A DNA stretch of 64,000 nt, taken from assembly GCF_036365525.1 (NCBI RefSeq), contig NW_027142279.1, positions 744,001 through 808,000 of the forward strand, read 5' to 3'. Below are positions 2,264 through 56,467 of the stretch, one piece after another. Made by a program: the position numbers and the translations under genes. Position 1 is the stretch's first letter. Each line of letters opens with the position of its first letter. The notes beneath the pieces were generated by a model. That model had not been told where the DNA came from and made no database searches. It saw only the letters and a list, made by a program, of their open reading frames with translations. This DNA is from Heterodontus francisci. Taxonomy: Eukaryota.

Positions 2264-2501
2264 NNNNNNNNNNNNNNNNNNNNNNNNNNNNNNNNNNNNN
2301 NNNNNNNNNNNNNNNNNNNNNNNNNNNNNNNNNNNNNNNNNNNNNNNNNNNNNNNNNNNNNNNNNNNNNNNNNNNNNNNNNNNNNNNNNNNNNNNNNNNN
2401 NNNNNNNNNNNNNNNNNNNNNNNNNNNNNNNNNNNNNNNNNNNNNNNNNNNNNNNNNNNNNNNNNNNNNNNNNNNNNNNNNNNNNNNNNNNNNNNNNNNN
2501 N
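2264..2501. other. Assembly gap (238 N)
   Basis: Run of N. Confidence 1.
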
Positions 2502-10614: not shown

Positions 10615-10965
10615 CTGCTTTGACAGCTAATGTTGAACTGCTTGTTGTAGGCACTGATTCGTTAGTGTAGAGATCTACTCTGCACTCAACGTTCTTGGAC
10701 CGAGCCCAATCTAGGGCGTCGAATCTCAGCCGGCTGCTGATGCTGTAAGATGTATTTTCTTTTGATAGGATGGCATTGAGATCAGTGTGAATGTTCGTGT
10801 CATTGGCATCTTTCTCCTTGCCATCGACAAGCCAGTGGATCTTGATGTTGTCGGGGTAGAAGTCGCTTACGAGGCAGACCACAGTGGCTTTTTTCTTTTC
10901 TCTAATCTCTTCGGGAGAGGGCTCAAAGACAGTAACTTTGGCAGGCCTAATCGTATCGTTTTCGC
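10615..10965 (-). CDS. TRBC: TCR beta constant exon 1 (Ig C1 domain)
   Basis: ENDTIRPAKVTVFEPSPEEIREKKKATVVCLVSDFYPDNIKIHWLVDG...YSISSRLR...ECRV...AVKA, bounded by tgcag| and |gtaag. Confidence 0.98.
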
Positions 10966-11058
10966 CTGCAGGAAAAGTAAATGGAGAGAATATGGATGAG
11001 TATGAAACCCGTCTTGAGAATTTTAAACCACCAAACAATATCAACCTTTCAATTCTAG

Positions 11059-26330: not shown

Positions 26331-26851
26331 CACATCAGCAAATCATGTTACACGAACCCGGTCGAAAACAGTTTGCTAAAAGTGACCTGCTCAGCATTTA
26401 GGAAGCACTGGTCAAGACAATCAGGACACACAAAGCAGCTTACAGCCAATGAAGCAGTTTGTTTAGGAAGTGGTCACCACAGGGAGACAGAGCAACTGAT
26501 ATTGGACCAAGGAAGTCCCATCAAACAGCAGTGAAATTAATGAGCAGATCATTGTGATGTTGGTTGAGGGATCAATATTGGTCCCAAGACACCGGGGTGG
26601 TGTTTCAGGGGTAAAAGAGTAACCAGTTTTCACACAAATAACACAGTTATTCTCTTTTCCAGAGGAATGCTCTAGGTTATAAAGCTGGACCATTCTGAGG
26701 CATCTACAAGATTGAAAGGGCCCAGCTCCCGCCATAATCCAGAGGAGATGTTTATTCGTTTACTCTGTTGCCACTGCTCTTCTGCTGATCTTCCTCGAGG
26801 TGTGTAGAGCGAGGTTTTTGTACGGAGGCTGCATTGGATTCTATCACAGTG

Positions 26852-26864
26852 TCCCCCCTGTCCC
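26852..26864 (-). CDS. TRBD: Dβ2 GGGACAGGGGGGA
   Basis: 5' 12-RSS (heptamer 26865-26871, nonamer 26884-26892) and 3' 23-RSS (heptamer 26845-26851, nonamer 26813-26821). Core matches the conserved vertebrate TRBD1 GGGACAGGGGG; open in all three frames. Confidence 0.97.
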
Positions 26865-27029
26865 CACGGTGATAGACACTCATACAAAAAAGAACGCGAA
26901 TTTTGCAAGGCCCTGCTTCTTCAAAGACTCCCGAGGGCTTCACTTGGTGAAGTCAGTTTAGATTGAGCTGCTGAAAGTTTTTTAGTCCTTTGGACCATAA
27001 TTAAAGGCCGTTCATTCCGTCTCAAAACT

Positions 27030-27200
27030 GTTAGCAGGAACTGGAGGTGGCCATTCCGCCCCTTCTCAGCCTGCTACACAGGTGCAGCAAGAGGCCATTC
27101 AGCCCCTCTAGACCTTGTTACACAGGAAGAAGAGGAGGCCCATTCAGCCCCTCTTGAGCTGCTTACACAGTAACAGGCCCATTCATCCACTCAAGCCTCC
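27030..27200. repeat. ~4 degenerate copies of the 44-bp satellite unit upstream of Dβ2
   Basis: aggccattcagcccctc...tgttacacaggaa units, followed by a (CCTT)n tract. Confidence 0.75.
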
Positions 27201-28478
27201 TTCCTTTCCTCTACTTCCTTCCTTCCTTCCTTCCCTTCCGTCCTTCCGTCCTTCCTCCCTTCCTTCCTTTCATGGTTTTTTTCTTGCTTGCTTTCTCTCT
27301 TGCTTTCTCTCTCTCCATTCCATCTCTCTGTTGCACCCCTTCTCCCCTTCCCCCTCCCCCATCCCTTACCCGCTTCATGATCCGCATTCTCTCTTGTACA
27401 ACGTGCAGGACCTCAGGACATACCGGCCACGGGACCTCAAACAGAAGCCACTTACTCTAGACAGTAAATCGTTCACACTGCTATCTCTTATCTTATCACT
27501 CAGAGAGACCCATGTTTGCCAAACTAGTGCAAGTTTCCCAGGTGTCGTGTTGATGTGTGCGGTGCTGTTATCATTCCTGCAGATCTCATTGCACACCAAC
27601 CCCCATCGCCATGCACCTGACATCAGGGAGAAAGGAATAGAAGTTTAGATGGAGTAGGGTGGGGGTGGGGAGAGGAGGCTCGTGTTCAGTATCACCACTG
27701 GCTTGATGACACATTTCTGGGGGGATTCGAGCAATGTTTGAAAATGAATAATCCGCCCTCTGAGAAAATGGGTCAAAAAAGGAACTCCTTCCTTAACAAC
27801 ACTGTGGAAATACCTAAAACACATTGAACGCAGGCGTGACGCCAGCAAAATGATAATGTTGCTGGGCTAGTAATCCTGCAGCCCGGGCTAGTGTTCTGGT
27901 TGTGTGAATTCAAATGGCCGCAGATGGGATTTAAATTCAGCTGATTCATAAAAATCTGTCAGGGTGCCATGAAACTGTCGTCGATTGTCATAAAAACCCA
28001 TCTACCATCTTCTATGGGACTGCAAACCTGCAGCATGCAGTTGACTGTTAACTGCCCTCTGAAATTGCAAAGCACTCAGTTCAAGGGCAATTAGGGATGG
28101 GCAACAAATGTTGGCCTTGCCATCGATGCCCACATCCCATGACAAGAATAAAAACATGGCCTAACAAACCACTCAGAAGGCAATTATGGGTGGGCAATAA
28201 ATGCATCCCAGCACGAATTAACAATGACTTTTCCTGTTCATTTTTGTCTGTATTTTGCTCCCAATCTGTGCCTCTCTGCATATGGTTGCCTCCCTAGCCT
28301 TCTTCCACTCTCCACCTCGCCTTTCCTCTATGTTTAATTGTTTTAACCTTTGCTTCTTTACTGTAATGCTTACTGTTTATTTTTCCAAATTTCATGTTCT
28401 CTCCCCTTTCTTCAAACGGAAGGGAGCAAACTGCCCAACAGTTTCAGTGCTGATTGAGGCCACTGATATATTTCGACA

Positions 28479-31968: not shown

Positions 31969-32708
31969 CGCAATGTTACACTTTTGTATCAGAACTCGCG
32001 TTTCTTCAACTCGATACACAATAGTTAATGAACATAGTTGGAACATTTTGCCTTGTGTTATATTCATTATTCCACCCTATTGCTCTTTATCTTATATTCT
32101 GTTACAATTGATCTCCTTGTCTCTGTCTCTTTTTCACTGTTTTAAATCTAATTTCCCATCTCCCTCCAGTTTTGTCTGCTGTTTGCTCTCCATCTGGAGT
32201 TAAGAAGAATGGGAGATGATCTTCTGGGAAATTCTAAGATTCTGAGGGCGCTTGACAGGGTAAAGGCTGAGAGAATGTTCCCATGTAGAATTAAAGGGCA
32301 CAGTTTCAGAATGAGGGGTCGCTCATTTAGGACGGAGTGGAGAAGGAATGTCTTCCATCAGGGAGTCGTGAATCTTTGGAATTCCCTCCTCCAGAGCGCT
32401 GTGGAGACTGAGCCCGTGAATGCATTCAAACTGAGATAGAGAGCGGAGCCAAGGATTATGGAGAACAGGTAGGAAAGAGGGATCGAGGCCAACATCAGAT
32501 CAGCCATGATCTCTGGTTGCAAATTCCTCTCTCACCAGCCCTCCTCCAATCTCCTACATTTAGCTATTTACATTCTTGCTTCTTCAATGCAATGCTTACT
32601 CTTTTGCCTGTTTTCACATTCTCTCGCCTTTCTTTAAATTGAAGAGAGTAAACTAGTCGACGTTTTCAATGCTAGTAAGAGACGTATTTTGACTAACATC
32701 TCACTTAC

Positions 32709-32766
32709 CCTGGACAGTTAATTTAGTGCCATCTCCAAAATACATAGGTTGAATACTCCCTGCTCC
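32709..32766 (-). CDS. TRBJ: Jβ1-5 GAGSIQPMYFGDGTKLTVQ
   Basis: GTAAG donor; RSS CACATCA-12-ACAAAAACA. Confidence 0.92.
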
Positions 32767-33110
32767 CACATCATCACCTCACATCACAAAAACATTCCCC
32801 AACTCTCTTCTGGAAGAAAAGAAACTCACTGGGCCATTCCTTAATATTTGATAGTGGCCTCTGGTTAACGCAAGCTAACTGTAAGTTAATGTAAACTCGT
32901 GGACTAACCAGGCAGTTTGCAGTTATAACTAACAGAATTCCCAAGACTGTCTGCCCCGTCTATATGTGGACCCGTTCATCAGTTATCCACCGTGGCAATC
33001 CTGACAATAGGAGATTTTCTCTAAGTCCCTCACAATTATTCATTCAATCCTTCTTGCAAGATGTTTACAGGTGACCCTTGCTTCACTGAAAACAAAGAAA
33101 CTGAACTCAC

Positions 33111-33167
33111 CCAAAATCGTCAACGTGGACACGTCCCCAAAATGTAGCAGGTTGGTATACCCGCCCG
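33111..33167 (-). CDS. TRBJ: Jβ1-4 GGYTNLLHFGDVSTLTIL (FGDV motif)
   Basis: GTGAG donor; RSS CACTGCA-12-ACCAAAATA. Confidence 0.8.
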
Positions 33168-33382
33168 CACTGCACTAAACAACAATACCAAAATACAACG
33201 ATGGGTAGACAGATGTCTAGACAAACAAATAGATAGATAGGTGGACAAACAGACAGACAGATGGATCCACAGTCCAACAAATAGATAGGTACATTGATAG
33301 ATAGATAGATAAATAGATAGACTTACAGATGAAAAGATGTATTTACATAGATAAATATATACATGTGCAAACATAATCTTAC

Positions 33383-33432
33383 CTAAAACAGTGAGTTTAG
33401 TCCCAGCTCCGAAATAATAAATGTCACCAGAG
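33383..33432 (-). CDS. TRBJ: Jβ1-3 SGDIYYFGAGTKLTVL
   Basis: GTAAG donor; RSS CACAATG-12-ATTAAAACA. Confidence 0.93.
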
Positions 33433-34937
33433 CACAATGATAAACTCATGTATTAAAACATCACCTGTCTTTGAGCCCTTTCCCGAAGTAGCCCCTCATA
33501 ATAAGGGAGAACCGACAAGTATAAGGAAAATTTGTCCATAGGAACATAGCAACTGGGGAACAGGAGTTGACCATTCAGCCCTTCGTGCTTATTCCGACAT
33601 TTAATTAGATTATAAATTATTTGTACCATAACCCCATCGACCTGCCTTCTTGGTTCCATAACCATTAGCATCTTTGCCGATCAAAAAATAATCAACCACA
33701 CATTTGAAATTTTCAGTTGACCCCTCAGCTTTCTGTGGGAGAGATTTCTGGATTCCACGGGGCATTTTGGAAACAAGTCCTTCTTGACATCACTCCTGAA
33801 TGGTCTAGCTATCAGTGTATGATTTTGCTCTCTTGTTCTGGACCCATCACACCAGAGGAAATATCAGATCCTACCATTATCTTAAACACATCAATTGGAT
33901 CACCCCTGAATCTCAAATTCTCAATTTACTGCAATCCTACTTTAAACAACACATCGTCATAAATTAAACTCTTTCAATTCCGTTATTATCCTGGGTGAAT
34001 GAGGAAAGGTCATGGGGCCCTTGACACCTCATTGTCCACTGGATATGGGTAGCCCACCAGTTCGATTAGTAACTTGAAAATACTGGGTCTCAAAACGGTT
34101 TCATTCATTGCCGCTCGAGGTTAAGAGGGAATAGATAGAATTATACAGAATTTACAACACACAAACAGGCCATTCAGCCCATCTGCTCCATGCCAGTGTT
34201 TACACTCCACTTGAGATTCCTCTCATCCCCTTCGTTCAATTCAATTTTTTTTTATCCAATCTACTTTTTTAAACCCACTCCTTGTAGTATTGAGTTCCAC
34301 ATTCGCACCACTGTCTGGGTAAAGAAATTTCTCCTGAATTCCCTATTGAATTTATTACTGACTGTCTGACATTTATGCTCTCCCCGTTCTGGTCTCCCCA
34401 CAAGTGGAAAAAACTTCGGTGTGTCTACCCGATCGAAACCCCTTTCAAAATCGTACAGACCTCTACCAGGTCACCCCTCAAACTTCACTGCTCTCGAGAA
34501 CGGAGTCCCAGTCTGTCCGACCTTCCCCAATAGTTATAACAGTTTGGGCAGCACAGCTGTTAATCTGTATTGACTTACCTTATCCAGAGCCTCTACATCA
34601 TTTCTTTTATAATATGCAGACCAGAACTGCATACTGAACGATGCAATCTGACATTTTTCGTTCTATGTCTGTGTCCTCTTGTTCTTCTCTTACAAGCGCA
34701 ATCATTCTATTTGTATCTACATTGCTGTTTGTTCTGTTTATTTTAGAGACCCTCCCTTATGTATCCACTCAAACCCCTTCCCTACAGTGAAACGAATTCG
34801 GCAGTTGTAGGTCTCCATTTGTAAGCTGAAGAATTGTAATTAATTCACCAAATTTCTATATTTTCACCCCCTCGACCACCTCACGTGAATTCCCAAATTG
34901 AATCAACTTTTCCAGTATTAGGAATGCATTCACTCAC

Positions 34938-34987
34938 CTAAAACCACCAGTTTGGTCCCATCTCCAAAATATGCTTCGGTATTGGAG
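34938..34987 (-). CDS. TRBJ: Jβ1-2 SNTEAYFGDGTKLVVL
   Basis: GTGAG donor; RSS CACACTG-12-CACAAAATC. Confidence 0.93.
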
Positions 34988-35621
34988 CACACTGGTATGG
35001 GGCTGTCACAAAATCCCCTTCAATCCCCTTAGATTGTTAAGTCTGTTCCATTGAAGTTCCTATTATGTAAATGACCGTAAAGGTCGTAGGAACATGGGGA
35101 CAGGAGGTGGCCATTCAGCCCTTCGAGCCTGTTCCACCATTCAGTTAGTTCAGGGTTGATCTGACTCTTAACTCCATCATCCCTCCTTGGTTCTGCAACC
35201 CTCAATACTTTTGTTTTACACAGGTCGATCAATCTTGGATTTGAATTTATCAATTGACCCCCAGTCTCAACTGATTGTTTTGGGGAGGGAAGGAGGGGGG
35301 AGAGAGTTCCTGATTTCCACTACCCTTTGTGTGAAGAAGTGCTTCCTGATATCACCCCTGAAAGGTGATAATTTAAATTGTTCTGGACACCCCCCAACCT
35401 GAGAAAGCAGCTTCTCTCTCTATCTATCCAACACCTCAAACCCCTCCATTATATCAGCCCTTAATGTTCTATATTCGAGGGACTGTCAGCTTAGTCTGAG
35501 TAACCAGTCCTCATGAGTTAACCCTTTAATGTATCTAATATCTGAACATTACTCCTGGTGATTTTTAAACTAGATATAGATTCTGATCGATAGGAGGAAC
35601 AGAAATACAGAGTCACCTTAC

Positions 35622-35669
35622 CCAACACTGTCAACTTGGTCCCATCGCCGAAGTAAGCTATGTCTTTTG
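35622..35669 (-). CDS. TRBJ: Jβ1-1 KDIAYFGDGTKLTVL
   Basis: GTAAG donor; RSS CACGATG-12-TCATGAACA. Confidence 0.9.
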
Positions 35670-36051
35670 CACGATGCTCCAAACTCAGTCATGAACAGAC
35701 CCGGGAGATGTTCCCCTTGTAACTGAACGAGACAGGGCGGGGTGGTTCACAGGCCAGGGTCATATTGGACTGGTCTTTGCAAACCAGAAAGAAGGGCCAG
35801 CGTCGTCCACACAAATGTAATCACATTTCCACACAAATGACACACAGTTCTTCTCTTTTCCTCAGGATTGTTCTAGGTTTTCAGGCTGGACCACTCTGAG
35901 ACATCTTTAAGATGAAAAGGGCCCAGTTCCCGTTATAATCCAGGGCCATGTTGACTCGTTTACTCTGTTGTCACTGCTCTTCTGCTGATCCTCCACCAGG
36001 TGTGTAGAGCAAGGTTTTTGTACGGAGGTTGCATTGGATTTTATCACCGTG

Positions 36052-36064
36052 TCCCTGCTGTTCC
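36052..36064 (-). CDS. TRBD: Dβ1 GGAACAGCAGGGA
   Basis: 5' 12-RSS (heptamer 36065-36071, nonamer 36084-36092) and 3' 23-RSS (heptamer 36045-36051, nonamer 36013-36021). Flanks are paralogous to Dβ2; open in all three frames. Confidence 0.96.
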
Positions 36065-36205
36065 CACAGTGATAGACACTCACACAAAAAATAGGAACGC
36101 AAAACTTACATGTCGCCGCCACTTGAAGTGCTCCCGAGGTCTTCACCTGGTGACGGCAGTTGAGACTGAGGTGCTGAAATTTAGTTAGACCTTTGCAGCA
36201 CAATT

Positions 36206-39200
36206 AGAGGACATTCAGCCCCTCTCCAGTCTATTAAACAGGAACAGGAGGAGAACATTCAGCCCCTCTCCAGTCTGTTACACAAGAACAAGAGAAAGCC
36301 AATTCAAACCCCTCTCCAGTCTGTTACACAGGAACAGGAGGAAGACATTCAGCCCCTCGCCAGTCTGTTACACAGGAACACGAGGAGGACATTCAGCCCC
36401 TCACCAGTCTGTTACACAGGAACAGGAGGAGGACATTCAGCCCCTCTCCTGTCTGCTTCACAGGAACAGCTGGAGGACATTCAGCCTCTCTCCAGTCTGT
36501 TACACAGGAACAGGAGGAGGACATTCAGCCCCTCTCCAGCCTGTTACACAGGAACAGCTGGAGGACATTCAGCCCCTCTCCAGTCTATTACACAGGAACA
36601 GGAGGAGGACATTCAGCCCCTCTCCAGTCTGTTACTCAGGAACAGGAGGAGGACATTCAGCCCCTCGCCAGTCTGTTACACAGCAACAGGAGGAGGACAT
36701 TCAGCCCCTCTCCAGTCTATTACACAGGAACAGGAGGAGGACATTCAGCCGCTCTCCAGTCTGTTACACAGGAACAGGATGAAGACATTCAGCACCTCGC
36801 CAGTCTGTTACACAGGAACACGAGGAGGACATTCAGCCCCTCACCAGTCTGTTACACAGGAACAGGAGGAGGACATTCAGACCCTCTCCTGTCTGCTTCA
36901 CAGGAACAGCTGGAGGACATTCAGCCCCTCTCCAGTCTGTTACACAGGAACAGGAGGAGGACATTCAGCCGCTCTCCAGTCTGTTACACAGGAACAGGAG
37001 GAAGACATTCAGCCCCTCGCCAGTCTGTTACACAGCAACACGAGGAGGACATTCAGCCCCTCACCAGTCTGTTACACAGGAACAGGAGGAGGTCATTCAG
37101 CCCCTCTCCTGTCTGCTTCACAGGAACAGCTGGAGGAGATTCAGCCCCTCTCCAGTCTGTTACAAAGGAACAGGAGGAGGACATTCAGTCCCTCTCCAGT
37201 CTGTTACACAGGAACAGGAGGAGGACATTCAGCCCCTCTCCAGTCTGCTACACAGGAACAGGAGGAGGACATTCAGCTGCTCTCCAGTCTGTTACACAGG
37301 AACAGGAGGAGGGCATTCAGACACTCGCCAGTCTGTTACACAGCAACAGGAGGAGGACATTCAGCCCCTCTCCAGTCTATTACACAGGAACAGGAGGAGG
37401 ACATTCAGCCGCTCTCCAGTCTGTTACACAGGAACAGTCGGAAGACATTCAGCCCCTCGCCAGTCTGTTACACAGGAACACGAGGAGGACATTCAGCCCC
37501 TCACTAGTCTGTTACACAGGAACAGGAGGAGGTCATTCAGCCCCTCTTCTGTCTGCTTCACAGGAACAGTTGGAGGAGATTCAGCCACTCTCCAGTCTGT
37601 TACACAGGAAGAGGAGGAGGACATTCAGCCCCTCTCCAGTCTGTTACACAGGAACAGGAGGAGGACATTCGGCCCCTCTCCAGTCTGTTACTCAGGAACA
37701 GGAGGAGGACATTCAGCCCCGCTCCAGTCTGTTACACAGGAACAGGAGGAGGACATTCAGCCCCTCTCCAGTCTGTAACACAGGAACAGGAGGAGGACAT
37801 TCAGCCCGTCTCCAGTCTGCTACACAGGAACAGGAGGAGGACATTCAGCCCCTCTCCAGTATGTTACATATGAACAGGAGGAGGACATTCAGCCCCTCTC
37901 CAGTCTGCTACACAGGAACAGGAGGAGGACATTCAGCTGCTCTCCAGTCTGTTACACAGGAACAGGAGGAGGGCATTCAGACCCTCGCCAGTCTGTTACA
38001 CAGCAACAGGAGGAGGACATTCAGCCCCTCTCCAGTCTATTACACAGGAACAGGAGGAGGACATTCAGCCGCTCTCCAGTCTGTTACACAGGAACAGTAG
38101 GAAGACATTCAGCCCCTCGCCAGTCTGTTACACAGGAACACGAGGAGGACATTCAGCCCCTCACTAGTCTGTTACACAGGAACAGGAGGAGGTCATTCAG
38201 CCCCTCTTCTGTCTGCTTCACAGGAACAGCTGGAGGAGATTCAGCCCCTCTCCAGTCTGTTACACAGGAACAGGAGGAGGACATTCAGCCCCTCTCCAGT
38301 CTGTTACACAGGAACAGGAGGAGGACATTCAGCCCCTCTGCAGTCTGTTACTCAGGAACAGGAGGAGGACATTCAGCCCCTCTCCAGTCTGTTACACAGG
38401 AACAGGAGGAGGACATTCAGCCCCTCTCCAGTCTGTAACACAGGAACAGGAGGGGGACATTCAGCCCGTCTCCAGTCTGCTACACAGGAACAGGAGGAGG
38501 ACATTCAGCCCCTCTCCAGTATGTTACATATGAACAGGAGGAGGACATTCAGCCCCTCTCCAGTCTGAAACACAGGAACAGGAGGAGGACATTCAGCCCC
38601 TCTCCAGTCTGTTACATTTGAACAGGAGGGTAACATTCAGCCCCTCTCCTGTCTGCTACACGGGAACAGGAGGAGGACATTCAGCCCATCTCCAGTCTGT
38701 TACACAGGAACAGGAGGAGGACATTCAGCACCTCTCTAGTCTGTTACACAGGAACAGGAGGAGGACATTCAGTCCCTCTCCAGTCTGTTACACAAAAACA
38801 GGAGGAGGACATTCAGCCCCTCTCCAGTCTGTTACACAGGAAGAGGAGGAAGACATTCAGCCCCTCTCGTGCTTGTTACACTGGAACAGGAGGAGGACAT
38901 TCAGCCACTCTCGAGTCTGTTGGACAGGAGCAGGAGGAGGACATTCCGCCCCTCTGGAGCCTGTTATACAGGAACAGGAGGAGGACATTCAGCCCCTCTC
39001 CAGTCTGTTACATAGGAACAGGAGGAGGACATTCAGCCCCTCTCCAGTCTGTTACACAGGAAGAGGAGGAAGACATTCAGCCCCTCTCGAGTCTGTTACA
39101 CTGGAACAGGAGGAGGACATTCAGCCACTCTCGAGTCTGTTGGACAGGAGCAGGAGGAGGACATTCAGCCCCTCTCCAGTCTGTTACATAGGAACAGGAG

Positions 39201-42200
39201 GAGGACATTCAGCCCCTCTCCAGTCTGTTACACAGGAAGAGGAGGAAGACATTCAGCCCCTCTCGAGTCTGTTACACTGGAACAGGAGGAGGACATTCAG
39301 CCACTCTCGAGTCTGTTGGACAGGAGCAGGAGGAGGACATTCAGCCCCTCTGGAGCCTGTTCTACAGGAACAGGAGGAGGACATTCAGCCCCTCTCCAGT
39401 CTGTTAGACAGGAGCAGGAGGAGGACATTCAGCCCCTCTCCAGTCTGTTACATAGGAACAGGAGGAGGACATTCAGCCCCTCTCCAGTCTGTTACACAGG
39501 AAGCGGAGGAAGACATTCAGCCCCTCTCGAGTCTGTTACACTGGAACAGGAGGAGGACATTCAGCCACTCTCGAGTCTGTTAGACAGGAGCAGGAGGAGG
39601 ACATTCAGCCCCTCTGGAGCCTGTTATACAGGAACAGGAAGAGGACATTCAGCACCTCTCCAGTCTGTTAGGCAGGAGCAGGAGGAGGACATTCAGCCCC
39701 TCTCCAGTCTGTTAGACAGGAGTAGGAGGAGGACATTCAGCCCCACTCGAGTCTGTTACACAGGAGCAGGAGGAGGACATTCAGCCCCTCTCGAGTCTGT
39801 TACATAGGAACAGGAGGAGGACATTCAGCCCCTCTCCAGTCTGTTACACAGGAAGAGGAGGAGGACATTCAGCCACTCTCGAGTCTGTTAGACAGGAGCA
39901 GGAGGAGGACATTCAGCCCCTCTGGACCCTGTTGTACAGGCACAGGAGGAGGACATTCAGCCCCTCTCCAGTCTGTTGGACAGGAGCAGGAGGAGGACAT
40001 TCAGCCCCTCTCCAGTTTGTTACATTGGATCAGGAGGAGGACATTCAGCCCCTCTCCAGTCTGTTACACGGGAAGAGGAGGAAGACATTCAGACCCTCTC
40101 CAGTCTGTTACACTGGAACAGGAGGAGGACATTCAGTCACTCTCCAGTCTGTAGACTGGAGCAGGAGGAGGACATTCAGCCCCTCTGGAGCCTGTTATAC
40201 AGGAACAGGAGGAGGACATTCAGCCCCTCTCCAGTCTGTTAGACATTAGCACGAGGAGGACATTCAGCCCCTCTCCAGTCTGTTACTCAGGAACAGGAGG
40301 AGGACATTCAGCCCCTCGCCAGTCTGTTACACAGCAACAGGAGGAGGACATTCAGCCCCTCTCCAGTCTATTACACAGGAACAGGAGGAGGACATTCAGC
40401 CGCTCTCCAGTCTGTTACACAGGAACAGGATGAAGACATTCAGCACCTCGCCAGTCTGTTACACAGGAACACGAGGAGGACATTCAGCCCCTCACCAGTC
40501 TGTTACACAGGAACAGGAGGAGGACATTCAGACCCTCTCCTGTCTGCTTCACAGGAACAGCTGGAGGACATTCAGCCCCTCTCCAGTCTGTTACACAGGA
40601 ACAGGAGGAGGACATTCAGCCGCTCTCCAGTCTGTTACACAGGAACAGGAGGAAGACATTCAGCCCCTCGCCAGTCTGTTACACAGCAACACGAGGAGGA
40701 CATTCAGCCCCTCACCAGTCTGTTACACAGGAACAGGAGGAGGTCATTCAGCCCCTCTCCTGTCTGCTTCACAGGAACAGCTGGAGGAGATTCAGCCCCT
40801 CTCCAGTCTGTTACAAAGGAACAGGAGGAGGACATTCAGTCCCTCTCCAGTCTGTTACACAGGAACAGGAGGAGGACATTCAGCCCCTCTCCAGTCTGCT
40901 ACACAGGAACAGGAGGAGGACATTCAGCTGCTCTCCAGTCTGTTACACAGGAACAGGAGGAGGGCATTCAGACCCTCGCCAGTCTGTTACACAGCAACAG
41001 GAGGAGGACATTCAGCCCCTCTCCAGTCTATTACACAGGAACAGGAGGAGGACATTCAGCCGCTCTCCAGTCTGTTACACAGGAACAGTCGGAAGACATT
41101 CAGCCCCTCGCCAGTCTGTTACACAGGAACACGAGGAGGACATTCAGCCCCTCACTAGTCTGTTACACAGGAACAGGAGGAGGTCATTCAGCCCCTCTTC
41201 TGTCTGCTTCACAGGAACAGTTGGAGGAGATTCAGCCCCTCTCCAGTCTCTTACACAGGAACAGGAGGAGGACATTCAGCCCCTCTCCAGTCTGTTACAC
41301 AGGAACAGGAGGAGGACATTCGGCCCCTCTCCAGTCTGTTACTCAGGAACAGGAGGAGGACATTCAGCCCCGCTCCAGTCTGTTCCACAGGAACAGGAGG
41401 AGGACATTCAGCCCCTCTCCAGTCTGTAACACAGGAACAGGAGGAGGACATTCAGCCCGTCTCCAGTCTGCTACACAGGAACAGGAGGAGGACATTCAGC
41501 CCCTCTCCAGTATGTTATATATGAACAGGAGGAGGACATTCAGCCCCTCTCCAGTCTGCTACACAGGAACAGGAGGAGGACATTCAGCTGCTCTCCAGTC
41601 TGTTACACAGGAACAGGAGGAGGGCATTCAGACCCTCGCCAGTCTGTTACACAGCAACAGGAGGAGGACATTCAGCCCCTCTCCAGTCTATTACACAGGA
41701 ACAGGAGGAGGACATTCAGCCGCTCTCCAGTCTGTTACACAGGAACAGTAGGAAGACATTCAGCCCCTCGCCAGTCTGTTACACAGGAACACGAGGAGGA
41801 CATTCAGCCCCTCACTAGTCTGTTACACAGGAACAGGAGGAGGTCATTCAGCCCCTCTTCTGTCTGCTTCACAGGAACAGCTGGAGGAGATTCAGCCCCT
41901 CTCCAGTCTGTTACACAGGAACAGGAGGAGGACATTCAGCCCCTCTCCAGTCTGTTACACAGGAACAGGAGGAGGACATTCAGCCCCTCTCCAGTCTGTT
42001 ACTCAGGAACAGGAGGAGGACATTCAGCCCCTCTCCAGTCTGTTACACAGGAACAGGAGGAGGACATTCAGCCCCTCTCCAGTCTGTAACACAGGAACAG
42101 GAGGAGGACATTCAGCCCGTCTCCAGTCTGCTACACAGGAACAGGAGGAGGACATTCAGCCCCTCTCCAGAATGTTACATATGAACAGGAGGAGGACATT

Positions 42201-45200
42201 CAGCCCCTCTCCAGTCTGAAACACAGGAACAGGAGGAGGACATTCAGCCCCTCTCCAGTCTGTTACATTTGAACAGGAGGGTAACATTCAGCCCCTCTCC
42301 TGTCTGCTACACGGGAACAGGAGGAGGACATTCAGCCCATCTCCAGTCTGTTACACAGGAACAGGAGGAGGACATTCAGCACCTCTCTAGTCTGTTACAC
42401 AGGAACAGGAGGAGGACATTCAGTCCCTCTCCAGTCTGTTACACAAAAACAGGAGGAGGACATTCAGCCCCTCTCCAGTCTGTTACACAGGAAGAGGAGG
42501 AAGACATTCAGCCCCTCTCGTGTTTGTTACACTGGAACAGGAGGAGGACATTCAGCCACTCTCGAGTCTGTTGGACAGGAGCAGGAGGAGGACATTCCGC
42601 CCCTCTGGAGCCTGTTATACAGGAACAGGAGGAGGACATTCAGCCCCTCTCCAGTCTGTTACATAGGAACAGGAGGAGGACATTCAGCCCCTCTCCAGTC
42701 TGTTACACAGGAAGAGGAGGAAGACATTCAGCCCCTCTCGAGTCTGTTACACTGGAACAGGAGGAGGACATTCAGCCACTCTCGAGTCTGTTGGACAGGA
42801 GCAGGAGGAGGACATTCAGCCCCTCTCCAGTCTGTTACATAGGAACAGGAGGAGGACATTCAGCCCCTCTCCAGTCTGTTACACAGGAAGAGGAGGAAGA
42901 CATTCAGCCCCTCTCGAGTCTGTTACACTGGAACAGGAGGAGGACATTCAGCCACTCTCGAGTCTGTTGGACAGGAGCAGGAGGAGGACATTCAGCCCCT
43001 CTGGAGCCTGTTCTACAGGAACAGGAGGAGGACATTCAGCCCCTCTCCAGTCTGTTAGACAGGAGCAGGAGGAGGACATTCAGCCCCTCTCCAGTCTGTT
43101 ACATAGGAACAGGAGGAGGACATTCAGCCCCTCTCCAGTCTGTTACAGAGGAAGCGGAGGAAGACATTCAGCCCCTCTCGAGTCTGTTACACTGGAACAG
43201 GAGGAGGACATTCAGCCACTCTCGAGTCTGTTAGACAGGAGCAGGAGGAGGACATTCAGCCCCTCTGGAGCCTGTTATACAGGAACAGGAAGAGGACATT
43301 CAGCACCTCTCCAGTCTGTTAGGCAGGAGCAGGAGGAGGACATTCAGCCCCTCTCCAGTCTGTTAGACAGGAGTAGGAGGAGGACATTCAGCCCCACTCG
43401 AGTCTGTTACACAGGAGCAGGAGGAGGACATTCAGCCCCTCTCGAGTCTGTTACATAGGAACAGGAGGAGGACATTCAGCCCCTCTCCAGTCTGTTACAC
43501 AGGAAGAGGAGGAGGACATTCAGCCACTCTCGAGTCTGTTAGACAGGAGCAGGAGGAGGACATTCAGCCCCTCTGGACCCTGTTGTACAGGCACAGGAGG
43601 AGGACATTCAGCCCCTCTCCAGTCTGTTGGACAGGAGCAGGAGGAGGACATTCAGCCCCTCTCCAGTCTGTTACATTGGATCAGGAGGAGGACATTCAGC
43701 CCCTCTCCAGTCTGTTACACGGGAAGAGGAGGAAGACATTCAGACCCTCTCCAGTCTGTTACACTGGAACAGGAGGAGGACATTCAGTCACTCTCCAGTC
43801 TGTAGACTGGAGCAGGAGGAGGACATTCAGCCCCTCTGGAGCCTGTTATACAGGAACAGGAGGAGGACATTCAGCCCCTCTCCAGTCTGTTAGACAGTAG
43901 CACGAGGAGGACATTCAGCCCCTCTCCAGTCTGTTAGACAAGAGCAGGAGGAGGACATTCAGCCCCACTCGAGTCTGTTACACAGGAGCAGGAGGAGGAC
44001 ATTCAAACCCTCACCGCTCTGTTAGACAGGAGCAGGAGTAGGACATTCGGCCCTTCTCCAGTCTGCTACACAGGAACAGGAGGAGGACATTCAGCCCCTC
44101 TCCAGTATGTTACATATGAACAGGAGGAGGACATTCAGCCCCTCTCCAGTCTGAAACACAGGAACAGGAGGAGGACATTCAGCCCCTCTCCAGTCTGTTA
44201 CATTTGAACAGGAGGTTAACATTCAGCCCCTCTCCTGTCTGCTATACAGGAACAGGAGGAGGACATTCAGCCCATCTCCAGTCTGTTACACAGGAACAGG
44301 AGGAGGACATTCAGCCCCTCTCTAGTCTGTTACACAGGAACAGGAGGAGGACATTCAGTCCCTCTCCAGTCTGTTACATAGGAACAGGAGGAGGACATTC
44401 AGCCCCTCTCCAGTCTGTTACACAGGAAGAGGAGGAAGACATTCAGCCCCTCTCGTGTTTGTTACACTGGAACAGGAGGAGGACATTCAGCCAATCTCGA
44501 GTCTGTTGGACAGGAGCAGGAGGAGGACATTCAGACCCTCTGGAGCCTGTTATACAGGAGCAGGAGGAGGACATTCAGCCCCTCTCCAGTCTGTTACATT
44601 GGATCAGGAGGAGGACATTCAGCCCCTCTCCAGTCTGTTACACGGGAAGAGGAGGAAGACATTCAGTCCCTCTCCAGTCTGTTACACTGGAACAGGAGGA
44701 GGACATTCAGTCACTCTCCAGTCTGTAGACTGGAGCAGGAGGAGGACATTCAGCCCCTCTGGAGCCTGTTATACAGGAACAGGAGGAGGACATTCAGCCC
44801 CTCTCCAGTCTGTTAGACAGGAGCAGGAGGAGGACATTCAGCCCCACTCGAGTCTGTTACACAGGAGCAGGAGGAGGACATTCAAACCCTCACCGCTCTG
44901 TTAGACAGGAGCAGGAGTAGGACATTCAGCCCTTCTCCAGTCTGCTACACAGGAACAGGAGGAGGACATTCAGCCCCTCTCCAGTATGTTACATATGAAC
45001 AGGAGGAGGACATTCAGCCCCTCTCCAGTCTGAAACACAGGAACAGGAGGAGGACATTCAGCCCCTCTCCAGTCTGTTACATTTGAACAGGAGGTTAACA
45101 TTCAGCCCCTCTCCTGTCTGCTATACAGGAACAGGAGGAGGACATTCAGCCCATCTCCAGTCTGTTACACAGGAACAGGAGGAGGACATTCAGCCCCTCT

Positions 45201-46921
45201 CTAGTCTGTTACACCGGAACAGGAGGAGGACATTCAGTCCCTCTCCAGTCTGTTACATAGGAACAGGAGGAGGACATTCAGCCCCTCTCCAGTCTGTTAC
45301 ACAGGAAGAGGAGGAAGACATTCAGCCCCTCTCTTGTTTGTTACACTGGAACAGGAGGAGGACATTCAGCCAATCTCGAGTCTGTTGGACAGGAGCAGGA
45401 GGAGGACATTCAGACCCTCTGGAGCCTGTTATACAGGAACAGGAGGAGGACATTCAGCCCCTCTCCAGTCTGTTACACAGGAAGAGGAGGAAGACATTCA
45501 GCCCCTCTCGAGTCTGTTACACTGGAACAGGAGGAGGACATTCAGCCACTCTCGAGTCTGTTGGACAGGAGCAGGAGGAGGACATTCAACCCCTCTGGAG
45601 CCTGTTCTACAGGAACAGGAGGAGGACATTCAGCCCCTCTCCAGTCTGTTAGACAGGAGCAGGAGGAGGACATTCAGCCCCTCTCCAGTCTGTTACACAG
45701 GAACAGGAGGAAGACATTCAGCCCCTCTCGAGTCTGTTACACTGGAACAGGAGAAGGACATTCAGCCACTCTCGAGTCTGTTAGACAGGAGCAGGAGGAG
45801 GACATTCAGCCCCTCTGGAGCCTGTTACACAGGAACAGGAGGAGGACATTCAGCCCCTCTCCAGTCTGTTAGACAGGAGCAGGAGGAGGACATTCAGCCC
45901 CTCTCCAGTCTGTTGGACAGGAGCAGGAGGAGGACATTCAGCCCCACTCGAGTCTGTTACACAGGAGCAGGAGGAAGACATTCAGCCCCTCTCCAGTCTG
46001 TTAGACAGGAGCAGGAGGGGGACATTCAGCCCCTCTGGAGCCTGTTATACAGGAACAGGAGGAGGACATTCAGCCCCTCTCCATCTGTTGGACAGGAGCA
46101 GGAGGAGGTCATTCAGCCCCTCTCCAGTCTGTTACATAGAAACAGGAGGAGGACTTTCAGCCCCTCTCCAGGCTGTTACACAGGAAGAGGAGGAAGACAT
46201 TCTGCCCCTCTCCAGTCTGTTACACTGGAACAGGAGGAGGACATTCAGCCCCTCTGGAGCCTGTTATACAGGAACGGGAGGAGGACATTCAGCCCCTCTC
46301 CAGTCTGTTAGACAGTAGCAGGAGGAGGACATTCAGCCCCTCTCCAGTCTGTTAGACAGGAGCAGGAGGAGGAAATTCAGCCCCACTCGAGTCTGTTACT
46401 CAGGAGCAGGAGGAGGACATTCAAACCCTCTCCGCTCTGTTGGACAGGAGCAGGAGGAGGACATTCAGCCCCTCGAGAGTCTGTTACACAGTAACAGGAG
46501 GAGGACATTCAGCCCCTCTCCAGTCTGTTACAGAGGAACAGGAGGAGGACATTCAGCCCCTCTCCAGTCTGTTACACAGGAACAGGAGGTGGACATTCAG
46601 CCCCTCTGGAGCCTGTTATACAGGAACAGGAGGAGGACAGTCAGCCCCTCTCCAGTCTGTTACACAGGAACAGGATTAGGACATTCAGCCCCTCTCCGGT
46701 CTGTTGCAAAGGAACAGGAGGCGGACATTCAGCCACTCTCCAGTCTGTTACACTGGAACAGGAGGAGGACACTCAGCCCCTCTCCAATCTTTTACACAGT
46801 AACAGGAGGAAGACATTCAGCCCCTCGAGAGCCTGTTACACAGGAACAGGAGGAGGCACTTTAGCCCCTCTTGAACCTCTTGCACCGGAACAGGAGGAGG
46901 CCATTCAGCCACTCTCGAGCC
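36206..46921. repeat. 44-bp tandem satellite (~240 copies) with nested higher-order repeats
   Basis: Unit ACATTCAGCCCCTCTCCAGTCTGTTACACAGGAACAGGAGGAGG. Variant patterns recur at offsets of 660, 879 and 3651 bp. Confidence 0.99.
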
Positions 46922-46935
46922 TTTCTCTCTTTCCT

Positions 46936-46987
<52 letters not shown>

Positions 46988-47040
46988 TATTTCTTTCTTT
47001 CTTTCTTTCTATCTCACTTTCTTTCTTACTTTCTTTCTGT
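46922..47040. repeat. (TTTC)n microsatellite
   Basis: Direct reading. Confidence 0.95.
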
Positions 47041-48269
47041 CCCTCTCAATTCCCTCCCTCTGTTGCACCCCTTATCCAAATCCCTGCCTCCGTCCCTTAC
47101 CCTTTTCTTTCCCTGCATTGTCCCTCCACAACCTGTAGGATCTCAAGAAGCACCGGCTACGGGTCCTCAGATAGAACGCACTTACTGTATCCAGTAAATT
47201 GTGCACACTGCAGTCTCTTCACCTATCACTCAGAGAGTCCAAGGTCTTCCAAACTAGGGGTGTGCAAGTTCCCAGGTGTTCTGTTGATGTGCGCAGTGCT
47301 GTTATCATTTCAGCTGATTTGTCTGCACACCAACACCCATCGCCCATGCACCTGGTCCTCAGCCACAACATTGAGGGTTTTACTCTTTTGTTCTGTTCTT
47401 CTGCTGCTTGCTCTTCAGATGAAAGTGACGCGAGTTTCTGGGTTGAAGAGGTTCCAAAAATGTCTAACAATAAAGGTGGACGTTGAATGAAGGATTGGGA
47501 TATGGGCACAAAACATTTTCAAAGAAAGGCCATTATGGAGTCATCAAAGTAAGTACATTTCCCTTTGTCCTTTTGCAAACATGGCACAAAGTAGGAATCC
47601 ATTGCTGATTCTAAAAGTTCCCTCGACATTATAGAGCGATGAGAAGTCATGTTCAACTTGTATAGAATCTTCCTTAGACCACAGTTAGAGCACTTTTCAC
47701 AGTTCTGTTATTCATTTTAAGAGATATAGAGATACAGGAGAAGGGGCAAAAAAGTAATGACAAGGATGATATCAGAACTGAGAGGTTATAGTTATCAGGA
47801 AGAGCTGGAAAGAGAAGGCTGAGGGGGTGATCTGATGGAGGGCTTTAAGATTATGAAAGGGCTTTGGATAGGGTAGACGTGAAAAAGATGTTTTCACTGG
47901 TGGGGGAGTCAGGAACTCCGAAACATCAACAGAAGATAGTCACTAATAAATAAAATCGGGAATTCAGGAGAAAATTCTTTACCCAGAGAGTGGGAGGATG
48001 TAGGGAGTGGGATAAGGCGAATAGCGGAGATGTATCCAAGAGGGAAGCTAGGTACATAAATAGGGGGAAGGAGATTTAGAAGGATCTATTGATGGGAAGA
48101 GATGAAGACGGGAGCGAGGAAGCTCGAGTGGAGGATGAACACCAGCATGAATGTGTTGGGCCGAATGGGCTGCTTCTTTGCTATTTGCCTCACGGCACAG
48201 ACCAAGGGATATAGTGCATCTCACCTGAGAAGGCAAACCAGCCGCTGGTTTAACATCTCAGGTGAAAAT

Positions 48270-48655
48270 GCAGCACTCCCTTAGTACTGACCCTCTGACA
48301 GTGCAGTGCTCCCTCAGTAATGACCCTCTGACAGTGCAGTGCTCCCTCAGTAATGACCCTCTGACAGTGCAGCACTTCCTCAGTACTGATCCTCTGAAAG
48401 TGCAGTGCTCCCGCAGTACTGACCCTCCAACAGTGCAGCACTCCCACAGTACTGACCCTCTGACAGTGCAGCACTCCCTCAGTACTGACCCTCCAACAAT
48501 GCAGCACTCCTTCAGTACTGACTCTCTGACAGTGCAGCACTCCCTCGGTACTGACCCTCCAACAGTGCAGCACTCCCTCTGTACTAACCCTCTGACAGTG
48601 CAGCACTCCCTCGGTACTGACCCTCCAACAGTGCAACACCCCCTCAGTACTGAAT
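48270..48655. repeat. 33-bp minisatellite (ACAGTGCAGCACTCCCTCAGTACTGACCCTCTG), ~12 copies
   Basis: Tandem copies give the 11-aa periodic ORFs at 48250-48732. Confidence 0.95.
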
Positions 48656-49339
48656 TGACCAAGTTGGCTGCATTGGCGATCGATGGGCGGTAGGTGGTGA
48701 TATTGCTCCACTAACCCTGATCGCTTCTTCATTTCTCGGCCGTTCCTTCCTCTGACAGCGACATCAGCTCTGCAATTCCCTCCCTAACCCTCTCCACCAC
48801 CCTCTCCTCCAAACCGGACCGTTTTCGGGACGTTTTCTCTACGGACGCTGAAGTCGCTGTATAAATGCAAGTCACATTTGTGAACAGGAGGTCCAGGACT
48901 TGGAGCATGTCCTCCAGAAACTGATTCTGCCGGCAGTTTCGCTTTATGTTCCTTCTACGGGTAGACACGAACTAAACTGGTCACAGAAAAAGTAACTGGA
49001 ATTTGTCACGACCGGGATTTCGCGTTTTGTTGCTCCAATTTTCAGCACTTGCCTGTCGTCACTTGATGCAACTGAGTGGCACTGGGAGAACAGTTAAGTG
49101 ATAACTACATTGATGTGGACCAGGAGTCAGGTAGAAGGGGGTAAGTAGGGCAAATGTTTTCCTGTGGGACATTAGAGAACCAACAACAATCAGGTAGTTT
49201 CATGGTCATAATTCATGTCACTGGTACTTTATCTCAATCAATTGAACTTCAACTCTTCTGAAGGCTGCAGTGGGGTTTGAACTCGCGACTACCAAAGCGC
49301 CAGCCCGGGCTGTTGGCTTACTGGTCCAGTAATATCACC

Positions 49340-50629: not shown

Positions 50630-50950
50630 ATATCAGCCGTAGTTTAGTGGGGAGCACCTCGGCACTGAGTCGGAGGTTTGTGGGTTGAAGACCCTGTACA
50701 GAGATTTAAGCACAAAATCTAGGCTGACACCCCCAGTGCAGGACAGAGAAAGTGCTGCACCGTGTGGAGGTGTCGCACCGAGTTACTCTCTTTATTTTGG
50801 CTGAGATGTTAAAACGAGGCCCCCACTGCAGACGGGTAGGATTCCATAGCCACTATTTCGGAGAATAACAGGGGCATTCTCCAGGGTTTCCAGGCACAAT
50901 AGTCATCCCTCAACCAACTTTACTAAAACATATTATCTGGTCATTCTCAG
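50630..50950 (+). mobile_element. Degenerate SINE (Deu/SINE3-like); related copy at ~9130-9330
   Basis: gcacaaaatctaggctgacacccccagtgca...gtgctgcac and ccctcaaccaac...attatctggtcatt motifs. Confidence 0.5.
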
Positions 50951-51034
50951 TTGGCGCAGTACTACGCAGAACCCGGGGCTGCAAATCGAGTTCGATCAGA
51001 TGTCAGACAATGAATTTCCATTCAGCGAGTGATC

Positions 51035-51050
51035 GCGCCCTCTGGCGGCC
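51035..51050 (-). promoter_or_regulatory. Strong CTCF motif in the V-D interval
   Basis: Minus strand GGCCGCCAGAGGGCGC closely matches the CTCF core and retains CpGs in a CpG-poor region. Confidence 0.7.
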
Positions 51051-55852: not shown

Positions 55853-56154
55853 ATCACTAGCAGCACAGTAATACACCGCCCTGTCAGTCTGATCCACCCT
55901 CAGTATTTTCAGGCTGCAGGTTTTAAGATCGGGTCTGGTGGCTTTAAATCTCTCCTTGAAACCGTCTTCAGGCGTTGAATCAGAGGTACCAACCGAGGTC
56001 ACTATGAGCTGCAACCCTGCTCCGCTGTGCTGGCGATACCAGTACATGTAGTTATAGTCGGTGTCATTCTGGAAACAGTGCATTTCCGCCGTTTTCCCCT
56101 CTGCGACCGTCAGCCGGTCCCCCCACTGGGTAATGAGAGCGCTCCTGGACCGGG
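55853..56154 (-). CDS. TRBV: Vβ (D-proximal) V exon: ALITQWGD...MHC...MYWYRQ...DRAVYYCAASD
   Basis: Ig V domain with both Cys and WYRQ; acceptor ccacag|; 23-RSS CACAGTG (55846-55852)-23-TCAAAAACA (55814-55822). Confidence 0.97.
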
Positions 56155-56467
56155 CTGTGGAGGAACAAGAGAAACAGATCGGGTCAAAGAGAACAGACAC
56201 AATGAGGAGAGAGACAGAGCTTTAATGGTAAACCTCCCAATGCACACTACAGTCGATCAGCCCGCTGACGCCCCAGCACAGGCTCATGTGCTAATACCCA
56301 GAATCGCTGAGCACAACTGCAGCGGCGCTAAATAACGACACTTGTCCTCAACAGCAAAACCAAACCAGTAAATCTCTAACTGATTGGAGCCCTTCGATAT
56401 CAGCAGGAATTGTGTCTCAAAGCTGATTAACTGGGGCCTGAATTTCCCTCCAAGTAGGAGCAGTAAC

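What the first reader, a model, noticed from the sequence alone, without database searches (positions are those of the whole stretch)
36206..46921. 10.7 kb satellite expanded just upstream of Dβ1 from a seed that stays ~4 copies at Dβ2
Seen: the array starts ~115 bp beyond the Dβ1 5' nonamer. The paralogous spot at Dβ2 (27030-27200) holds ~4 degenerate units. Both are followed by a pyrimidine microsatellite and homologous unique DNA (27300-27620 vs 47040-47350). The unit resembles the antisense 3' tail of the local CR1-type LINE (e.g. gaacaggagttgaccattcagcccttcgtg near 33560). Known: the germline Dβ promoter lies just 5' of D in mammals. Inference: a retroposon-tail seed expanded ~60-fold after the duplication and could alter Dβ1 accessibility or V-D1 distance.
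Basis: partly seen in the sequence, partly recalled or inferred. Interest (0 to 1): 0.7.

Follow-up and report, generated by a model that had tools for sequence, protein, structure and literature searches.

The report
Retroposon-tail minisatellite marks eroded TCR-beta cassettes
A 10.7-kb run of 243 copies of a 44-base piece of a jumping-gene tail sits just upstream of a T-cell-receptor beta D gene in a shark genome that holds over twenty such receptor cassettes; only four sister cassettes carry the giant repeat, and they have also lost a J gene and two likely CTCF boundary motifs, so the repeat likely grew passively in a cassette type whose first D unit is likely decaying.

Summary
The array is real (36207-46916, 44 bp x 243.5). 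The unit is the 3'-terminal ~45 nt of a LINE-like retroposon; at unrelated loci the same array runs straight out of the element's end. The assembly holds 21 Cβ exons and 23 D1 cassettes, with D1 arrays of 6.5-34 units in 19 and 227-308 units in a clade of four, this one included. All 21 D2 sites found keep 3-4 units. Growth was stepwise: the last jump came after the cassettes multiplied, by nested block duplications (83-unit block, 99.5% identical). The giant-array clade alone has an altered D1, a deleted first J, two broken CTCF-like motifs and about twice the V-D1 distance. Best reading (0.6): passive minisatellite growth on a D1 haplotype under relaxed constraint. An effect on D1 use is untested. 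This scan already noted a sibling ~300-unit array and a multiplied TCRβ on other DNA; the census, the clade-linked lesions and the tandem-tailed retroposon source are added here.

The parts
36207..46916 (-). 44-bp minisatellite, 243.5 units; unit = 3'-terminal ~45 nt of a LINE-like retroposon, retroposon sense on the minus strand
36559..43862 (.). two tandem copies of an 83-unit (~3.65 kb) higher-order block, 99.5% identical, with nested ~15-unit and 3-5-unit repeats
36013..36092 (-). TCRβ D1 (36052-36064) with 5' 12-RSS and 3' 23-RSS; third base A instead of the G found in the 17 non-clade D1 segments read and in D2
46921..47038 (.). (CTTT)n microsatellite closing the array, 29.5 units
47040..47354 (.). 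unique block homologous to 27300-27619; 81.5% against 78-80% for paralogous intron DNA, so no clear sign of constraint
26812..26893 (-). TCRβ D2 (26852-26864) with 12- and 23-RSS
27005..27197 (-). degenerate 4-5-unit seed upstream of D2, followed by a (TCCT)n microsatellite (27198-27269)
35807..35825 (-). junction of a deletion (net 436 bp, with an 18-base filler) that removes the first J of the D1 cluster; found only in the four giant-array cassettes
33110..33166 (-). J segment with FGDV in place of FGxG (shared with two small-array cassettes, so not clade-specific)
48687..48700 (+). remnant of a V-facing CTCF-like motif; two clade-specific substitutions
50941..50957 (+). site of a second V-facing CTCF-like motif, removed by a 13-bp deletion; the junction occurs 4 times in the genome, all in giant-array cassettes
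51035..51048 (-). retained D-facing CTCF-like motif, present in 23 of 23 cassettes
55853..56155 (-). nearest Vβ exon with 23-RSS, 19.8 kb from D1 (further V exons at ~58.9 and ~60.5 kb)
10615..10966 (-). Cβ exon 1 (C1-set), 100% identical to a protein named Heterodontus francisci T-cell receptor homolog; 21 copies at 99-100% in the assembly
35085..35360 (-). single-tail LINE 3' fragment in the J1 cluster; best match to the unit within the window

Best explanation
The array is a minisatellite made of the last ~45 bases of a LINE-like retroposon, and it likely grew without a function by repeated block duplication on one D1 haplotype of a multi-cassette shark TCRβ complex, a haplotype that is likely under relaxed constraint. 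Steps: (1, shown) the unit is the element's 3' end, and young copies of the element elsewhere usually end in the same tandem tail; (2, inferred) a tail-only, few-unit copy inserted upstream of the ancestral D before the D-J block doubled; (3, shown) D2 copies keep 3-4 diverged units while D1 copies carry 6.5-308; (4, shown) the giant arrays consist of nested duplicated blocks shared among four cassettes; (5, inferred) unequal exchange or conversion drove this, the short diverged D2 seed being too poor a substrate; (6, shown) the same four cassettes lost the first J and two CTCF-like motifs; (7, inferred) these are parallel signs of relaxed selection on a redundant D1-J1 unit, with the intact D2-J2-C likely keeping the cassette usable.
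For: Origin: all 17 non-TRB loci fetched from the unit search hold 45-46-bp arrays of 12-99 units; in 9 of 17 the array runs into aligned LINE 3' sequence and 6 of those gave an ORF2-end-like peptide (some loci are duplicates of each other). Of the 12 best matches to that LINE end, 9 (8 of 11 without the query locus) continue directly into a 44-47-bp array with the same junction. One exact 45-mer occurs 429 times in the genome, its reversed control 0 times. Census: 21 Cβ exons, 23 D1-type sites, array sizes 6.5 x3, 8.5 x2, 13.6 x3, 16.5, 22.4-34.4 x10, 227.5, 243.5, 303.5, 308.5. The giant ones form one clade on both flanks, 0-3 differences in 381 bp. Block structure. Lesions; the 900 bp around the CTCF-like pair carry 35 private substitutions in this clade against 0-1 in the other four groups. 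No switch-like or RSS-like content: AGCT 1.1/kb against 3.8/kb outside, WRCY+RGYW 35 against 57/kb, no RSS hit inside the array, hairpin z about -1.4.
Against: All four giant arrays descend from one event, so the link with the lesions is a single observation and cannot give cause or order. Both D1 RSSs, three J1 segments with FGxG, D2, J2, C and three V exons are open. A contig of the guessed-RNA run X5 matches only this clade's J (0-1 differences against 6 or more) with its unrearranged 5' flank, and that run shows J-to-C joints, so the unit is probably not silent. The clade has spread to four places on three contigs, which decay alone does not predict. The CTCF role rests on a recalled consensus; window-wide matches do not exceed chance (6 found, 11.4 expected). 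The small-array clade with 6.5-8.5 units has similar numbers of private substitutions next to its array, so divergence near the array is not itself a sign of decay.
Confidence: 0.6

Rival explanations
1. The array is the cause: its growth pushed the D1 promoter region away from the upstream CTCF boundary or silenced D1, after which the first J and the CTCF-like motifs decayed.
For: It starts ~115 bp from the D1 RSS, inside the zone where mouse has the minimal promoter and a 3-kb barrier region (PMC4291525, passages). It moves the remaining CTCF-like motif from 4.4-5.3 kb (18 of 19 cassettes) to 14.3-17.9 kb from D1 and doubles the V-D1 distance. The clade has several private changes in a GC-box-like stretch 5' of D1.
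Against: No excess CpG decay beside the array, as germline methylation spreading might leave. Mouse Vβ segments reach Dβ over more than 250 kb, so 10 kb more is small. A clade-type J1 contig appears in the guessed-RNA run. The order of events is unknown.
Confidence: 0.2
2. The giant-array cassette is a selected regulatory variant: array plus loss of the V-facing CTCF motifs retunes which V genes, or which D, this cassette uses, and it was copied for that reason.
For: Four copies in different surroundings. Two of three motifs lost, both of one orientation, the third kept in 23 of 23; rough joint chance 0.056 x 0.037 from clade-specific rates (post hoc). Most CTCF-like hits among the V genes face the lost motifs, as convergent sites do in mouse Tcrb (PMC10772921, passages). 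Old D1 haplotypes persist at 2-14% divergence in cassettes otherwise mostly 0-3% apart.
Against: No usage or binding data; other D1 haplotypes have 3-5 copies too, so four copies is not unusual; array length varies 227-308 among near-identical copies.
Confidence: 0.12
3. The array length or the number of cassettes is largely an assembly artefact (false duplication of blocks or of haplotypes).
For: All TRB cassettes lie on six contigs of 0.5-2 Mb; two pairs are near-identical over 17-19 kb (0 and 1 mismatch); the window and C761:561k differ by only 26 in 19 kb and could be alleles.
Against: RAG1 is found once; single contigs hold 4-6 distinct cassettes; block-specific unit variants recur across separately assembled copies.
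Confidence: 0.06

Closest known systems
Retrotransposon-derived tandem repeats, e.g. the cetacean common satellite (L1 3' part) and chicken HinfI/SCR1 satellite (CR1 3' UTR and part of ORF2); review PMC9659126, passages read
   Same: Tandem unit taken from the 3' end of a LINE; growth in place.
   Different: Here the unit is only the terminal ~45 nt, young elements carry it as a ready tandem tail, and the array sits ~115 bp from a D segment's RSS.
Shark HER1 LINE / HE1 SINE shared 3' tail (recalled; one search listing only; paper not read)
   Same: Elasmobranch retroposon tail of this kind.
Multi-unit TRB loci: bamboo shark with two D-J-C units in opposite orientation and bichir with five tandem V-D-J-C units (PMC10322711, supplementary file 16, part 1 of 5 read)
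   Same: Repeated V-D-J-C units, including inverted pairs sharing a V array.
   Different: 21 C exons and 23 D1 sites here, each unit mostly D1-J-D2-J-C with one C, nearly homogenised except around D1. A multicluster TCRβ in the horned shark was proposed by Rast and Litman in 1994 (recalled; paper not held), whereas a review states that cartilaginous-fish TCR genes are translocons (PMC6795676, passage).
Mouse Tcrb 5' flank of Dβ1: minimal promoter, 3-kb barrier with a repetitive tract and CTCF sites, 5'PC tether (PMC4291525 and PMC10772921, passages)
   Same: Repeats and CTCF-type motifs between the V genes and D1.
   Different: The mouse elements are tested; the shark motifs are consensus matches only, and the nearest V is 9-23 kb away, not more than 250 kb.

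Membership tests
Minisatellite / VNTR | Head-to-tail units of 10-100 bp | tested here: met
   44 bp x 243.5
Minisatellite / VNTR | Variable copy number with interspersed variant units and block duplications | tested here: met
   227-308 units among four near-identical copies; 108-112 distinct units each, 86-99 shared
Minisatellite / VNTR | Length polymorphism between individuals | not testable with these tools
   one assembly; no raw long reads
LINE-3'-end-derived tandem repeat | Unit aligns to, and is continuous with, the 3' end of a dispersed element | tested here: met
CR1-clade LINE (HER1) | Source element encodes an endonuclease-RT ORF2 that groups with CR1 | tested here: inconclusive
   attached copies are 340-470-bp 3' fragments; their peptide matches other ORF2-end fragments in the window (E 4e-13) but found no named homolog; the CR1 label is recalled
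TCRβ D segment | 5' 12-RSS, 3' 23-RSS, three open frames, followed by FGxG J segments and a Cβ exon | tested here: met
Ig switch-region-like repeat | AGCT/WRCY-rich tandem repeats | tested here: not met
   AGCT and WRCY/RGYW are depleted against the rest of the window
Dβ germline promoter or chromatin barrier | Drives germline transcription or marks a chromatin boundary in thymocytes | not testable with these tools
   only contigs of a guessed-RNA run
CTCF-binding elements between V and D | CTCF occupancy and orientation convergent with V-side sites | tested here: inconclusive
   motifs 2 and 3 kept in 19 of 19 non-clade cassettes; V-side hits mostly of opposite orientation; no enrichment over shuffles; binding untested

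The most novel reading that the evidence does not exclude
The horn shark runs TCRβ from about twenty near-identical cassettes that differ mainly in an old D1 haplotype block, and the 10-14 kb retroposon-tail array together with the loss of both V-facing CTCF sites switches one cassette type to a different recombination mode (D1 bypassed, V choice changed). That would be a natural allelic series, inside one genome, for how spacing and CTCF boundaries steer V-to-D joining and how exclusion works across many TCRβ loci.
Probability: 0.2. Interest if true: 0.75.

Novelty: new member of a known kind. Interest (0 to 1): 0.45.

Why it matters
The repeat itself is an ordinary kind of object, a retroposon-derived minisatellite, though with an unusually complete record: source element, seed, intermediate sizes and block history all lie in one genome. 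Its value is as a marker. It exposes a TCRβ complex of about 21 cassettes, far more than the two (bamboo shark) or five (bichir) tabulated in the supplement read, and it tags a cassette type with diagnostic D and J sequences. Cassette-resolved repertoire or ATAC data could therefore test directly whether 10 kb of repeat and lost CTCF motifs change D1 use, and how a T cell limits itself to one of many β loci.

Tried and rejected
Hairpin-driven instability: two-unit folds are not stronger than shuffles (z -1.40 and -1.35). Cryptic RSSs: none in the array at the scan's thresholds. Switch-region likeness: rejected. Methylation spreading seen as CpG decay in flanks: not seen. Far block as conserved promoter: 81.5% against 78-80% in paralogous introns. 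The giant array as a special barrier to gene conversion: a divergence island around D1 exists, but also in the 6.5-8.5-unit clade, so size is not the cause. Expression: no RNA holder listed; in the guessed-RNA run X5 the contig across D was D2-type and the D1-flank differences listed were not of this clade, which as missing cover in contigs is no evidence; only 32600-36206 was laid, so D2, J2 and the array have no read data. D use from cDNAs: a search for shorter TCRβ proteins gave 3 hits, none from this species; the one named cDNA protein carries a J of small-array cassettes (n = 1). Naming the LINE family by protein search failed. Literature: searches found no description of this array or of the horn-shark TRB genomic layout; primary papers tried by identifier were not held, so absence from print is not shown. 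Files 12-19 of PMC10322711 were not searched; only part 1 of file 16 was read.

Full report
Observation. Tandem Repeats Finder gives one array at 36207-46916 with period 44, 243.5 copies and 88% matches, followed by (CTTT)n at 46921-47038. The window is a TCRβ unit on the minus strand: three V exons with 23-RSS at about 55.9, 58.9 and 60.5 kb, D1 at 36052-36064, J segments, D2 at 26852-26864, more J segments and a C1-set exon at about 10.6-11.0 kb. The C exon is 100% identical to a protein named Heterodontus francisci T-cell receptor homolog. The array begins about 115 bp beyond the D1 12-nonamer. Upstream of D2 lie 4-5 degenerate units whose first and last members match the ends of the D1 arrays, then a microsatellite and DNA homologous to the far side of the array (74.8%).

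Origin of the unit. Searching the genome with five units gave 175 matches from 36 scored candidates, part of them outside TCR loci. I fetched 17 of the non-TRB places: all 17 hold 45-46-bp arrays of 12-99 units. In 9 of the 11 that I aligned (9 of the 17) the array runs without a break into LINE-type 3' sequence, and 6 of these gave an ORF2-end-like peptide (some of the 17 are duplicates of each other). Searching with that LINE end gave 5711 first-look candidates; of the 12 best loci, 9 continue directly into a 44-47-bp array with the same junction, one has an array 110 bp later and two have none. These elements are 340-470-bp 3' fragments, 94-98% alike. So the unit is the last ~45 nt of a retroposon, and a young subfamily usually carries it as a tandem tail. 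The TRB array has no element body, so I infer a tail-only insertion that was probably already several units long. The CR1/HER1 name is recalled and was not confirmed.

The assembly holds 21 copies of Cβ exon 1 at 99-100% on six contigs and 23 D1-type sites, with V genes of both orientations between them on the contig listed. RAG1 is found once. Two cassette pairs are near-identical and may be assembly duplicates, leaving at least 21 distinct D1 sites, and single contigs hold 4-6 cassettes. D1 array sizes are 6.5 (3), 8.5 (2), 13.6 (3), 16.5, 22.4-34.4 (10), 227.5, 243.5, 303.5 and 308.5. D2 was found in 21 of 23 cassettes, always with 3-4 seed motifs. The four giant arrays form one clade on both flanks. 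Outside a 6-7-kb island around D1 the cassettes are mostly within 0-3% of a cassette of another clade; inside it they differ by about 2-14%, also for a clade with only 6.5-8.5 units (7 cassettes used as queries). I infer frequent exchange among cassettes that spares the repeat-rich D1 block.

How it grew. Coding each unit by its variant shows nested duplications: 3-5-unit and ~15-unit repeats inside an 83-unit block present twice in the window (99.5% identical over 3671 bp) and nearly three times in the two C407 copies. Four of the 12 unit differences between the two blocks recur at matching positions in the C761 copy, so the block duplication is inherited and not made by the assembler. This is ordinary minisatellite turnover. 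Folding gives no unusual hairpin; the array is poor in AID hot-spot motifs and holds no RSS.

What comes with the giant array. In all four cassettes and in no other: a G-to-A change at the third base of D1, a deletion of net 436 bp that removes the first J, a 13-bp deletion through one CTCF-like motif (junction found 4 times in the genome) and two substitutions in the 3' end of a second. Among the other 19 cassettes the first of these motifs and the D-facing one are kept in 19; the second is within one mismatch of the consensus in 16, within two in 2, and broken in 1. The lead to these motifs came from earlier scan notes. The nearest V lies 19.1-22.7 kb from D1 against 9.0-10.1 kb in 17 of 18 small-array cassettes. 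The RSSs, three J1 segments, D2, J2 and C remain intact. In the guessed-RNA run X5 one 182-base contig matches only this clade's J with its unrearranged flank, and loose ends show J joined to the start of Cβ, a weak hint that the region is transcribed.

Mechanism and rivals. I put 0.6 on passive growth on a D1 haplotype under relaxed constraint in a highly redundant complex, 0.2 on the array having caused the loss of D1 activity, 0.12 on a selected retuning of the cassette and 0.06 on assembly inflation. The four copies stem from one event, so the link between array and lesions cannot show cause. In mouse the region 5' of Dβ1 holds a minimal promoter, a barrier with repeats and CTCF sites, and V segments reach it over more than 250 kb (PMC4291525 and PMC10772921, passages); this makes an effect plausible but makes 10 kb of added distance a weak lever.

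Comparison and verdict. Tandem repeats from LINE 3' ends are known (PMC9659126, passages). Multi-unit TRB loci are known in bamboo shark (two) and bichir (five) (PMC10322711, supplementary file 16, part 1); a multicluster TCRβ in this species was proposed in 1994 (recalled, paper not held). Earlier notes of this scan report a sibling ~300-unit array and a multiplied TCRβ. The repeat is a new member of a known kind. Interest is moderate, 0.45, and rests on the testable series of about twenty cassettes rather than on the repeat itself.

Noticed in passing
G000 contigs C2233, C407, C761, C779, C1317, C1675: 21 Cβ exons and 23 D1 sites in tandem and inverted V-D1-J-D2-J-C units, 55-600 kb apart; TCRγ-like and TCRα/δ-like V genes listed lie on one chromosome-scale contig each.
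   Followed up: partly
G000:C779 near 1395 kb and C761 near 1356 kb (L077, L078): Two cassettes lack D2 and the first J2 segments within the 10 kb read; J1 runs on into J2.
   Followed up: no
G000:C1317 near 278 kb and C779 near 1106 kb (L018, L020): D1 23-RSS heptamer altered at its last base in two cassettes.
   Followed up: no
G000:C39, 31-44 Mb (L053-L057, L113-L124): Dense cluster of young 340-470-bp LINE 3' fragments with tandem 45-bp tails, often inserted in or beside 33-, 37- or 48-bp minisatellites.
   Followed up: partly
L045, about G000:C2233:824850-825220: Eight CTCF-consensus matches at 45-bp spacing next to a V gene, all in one orientation.
   Followed up: no
L047:4400-5250 (G000:C2233, about 728.4-729.3 kb) and window 6700-6800: Further short degenerate runs of the same LINE-tail unit downstream of Cβ.
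   Followed up: no
window 48269-48653: 33-bp minisatellite of 11.7 units, longer in some other cassettes; third tandem repeat within the divergent D1 block.
   Followed up: partly
window 33.3-51.3 kb and paralogs: Island of old, unhomogenised haplotypes around D1 in cassettes that are otherwise mostly 0-3% apart.
   Followed up: partly
window 2264-2501: A run of 238 N; not interpreted.
   Followed up: no
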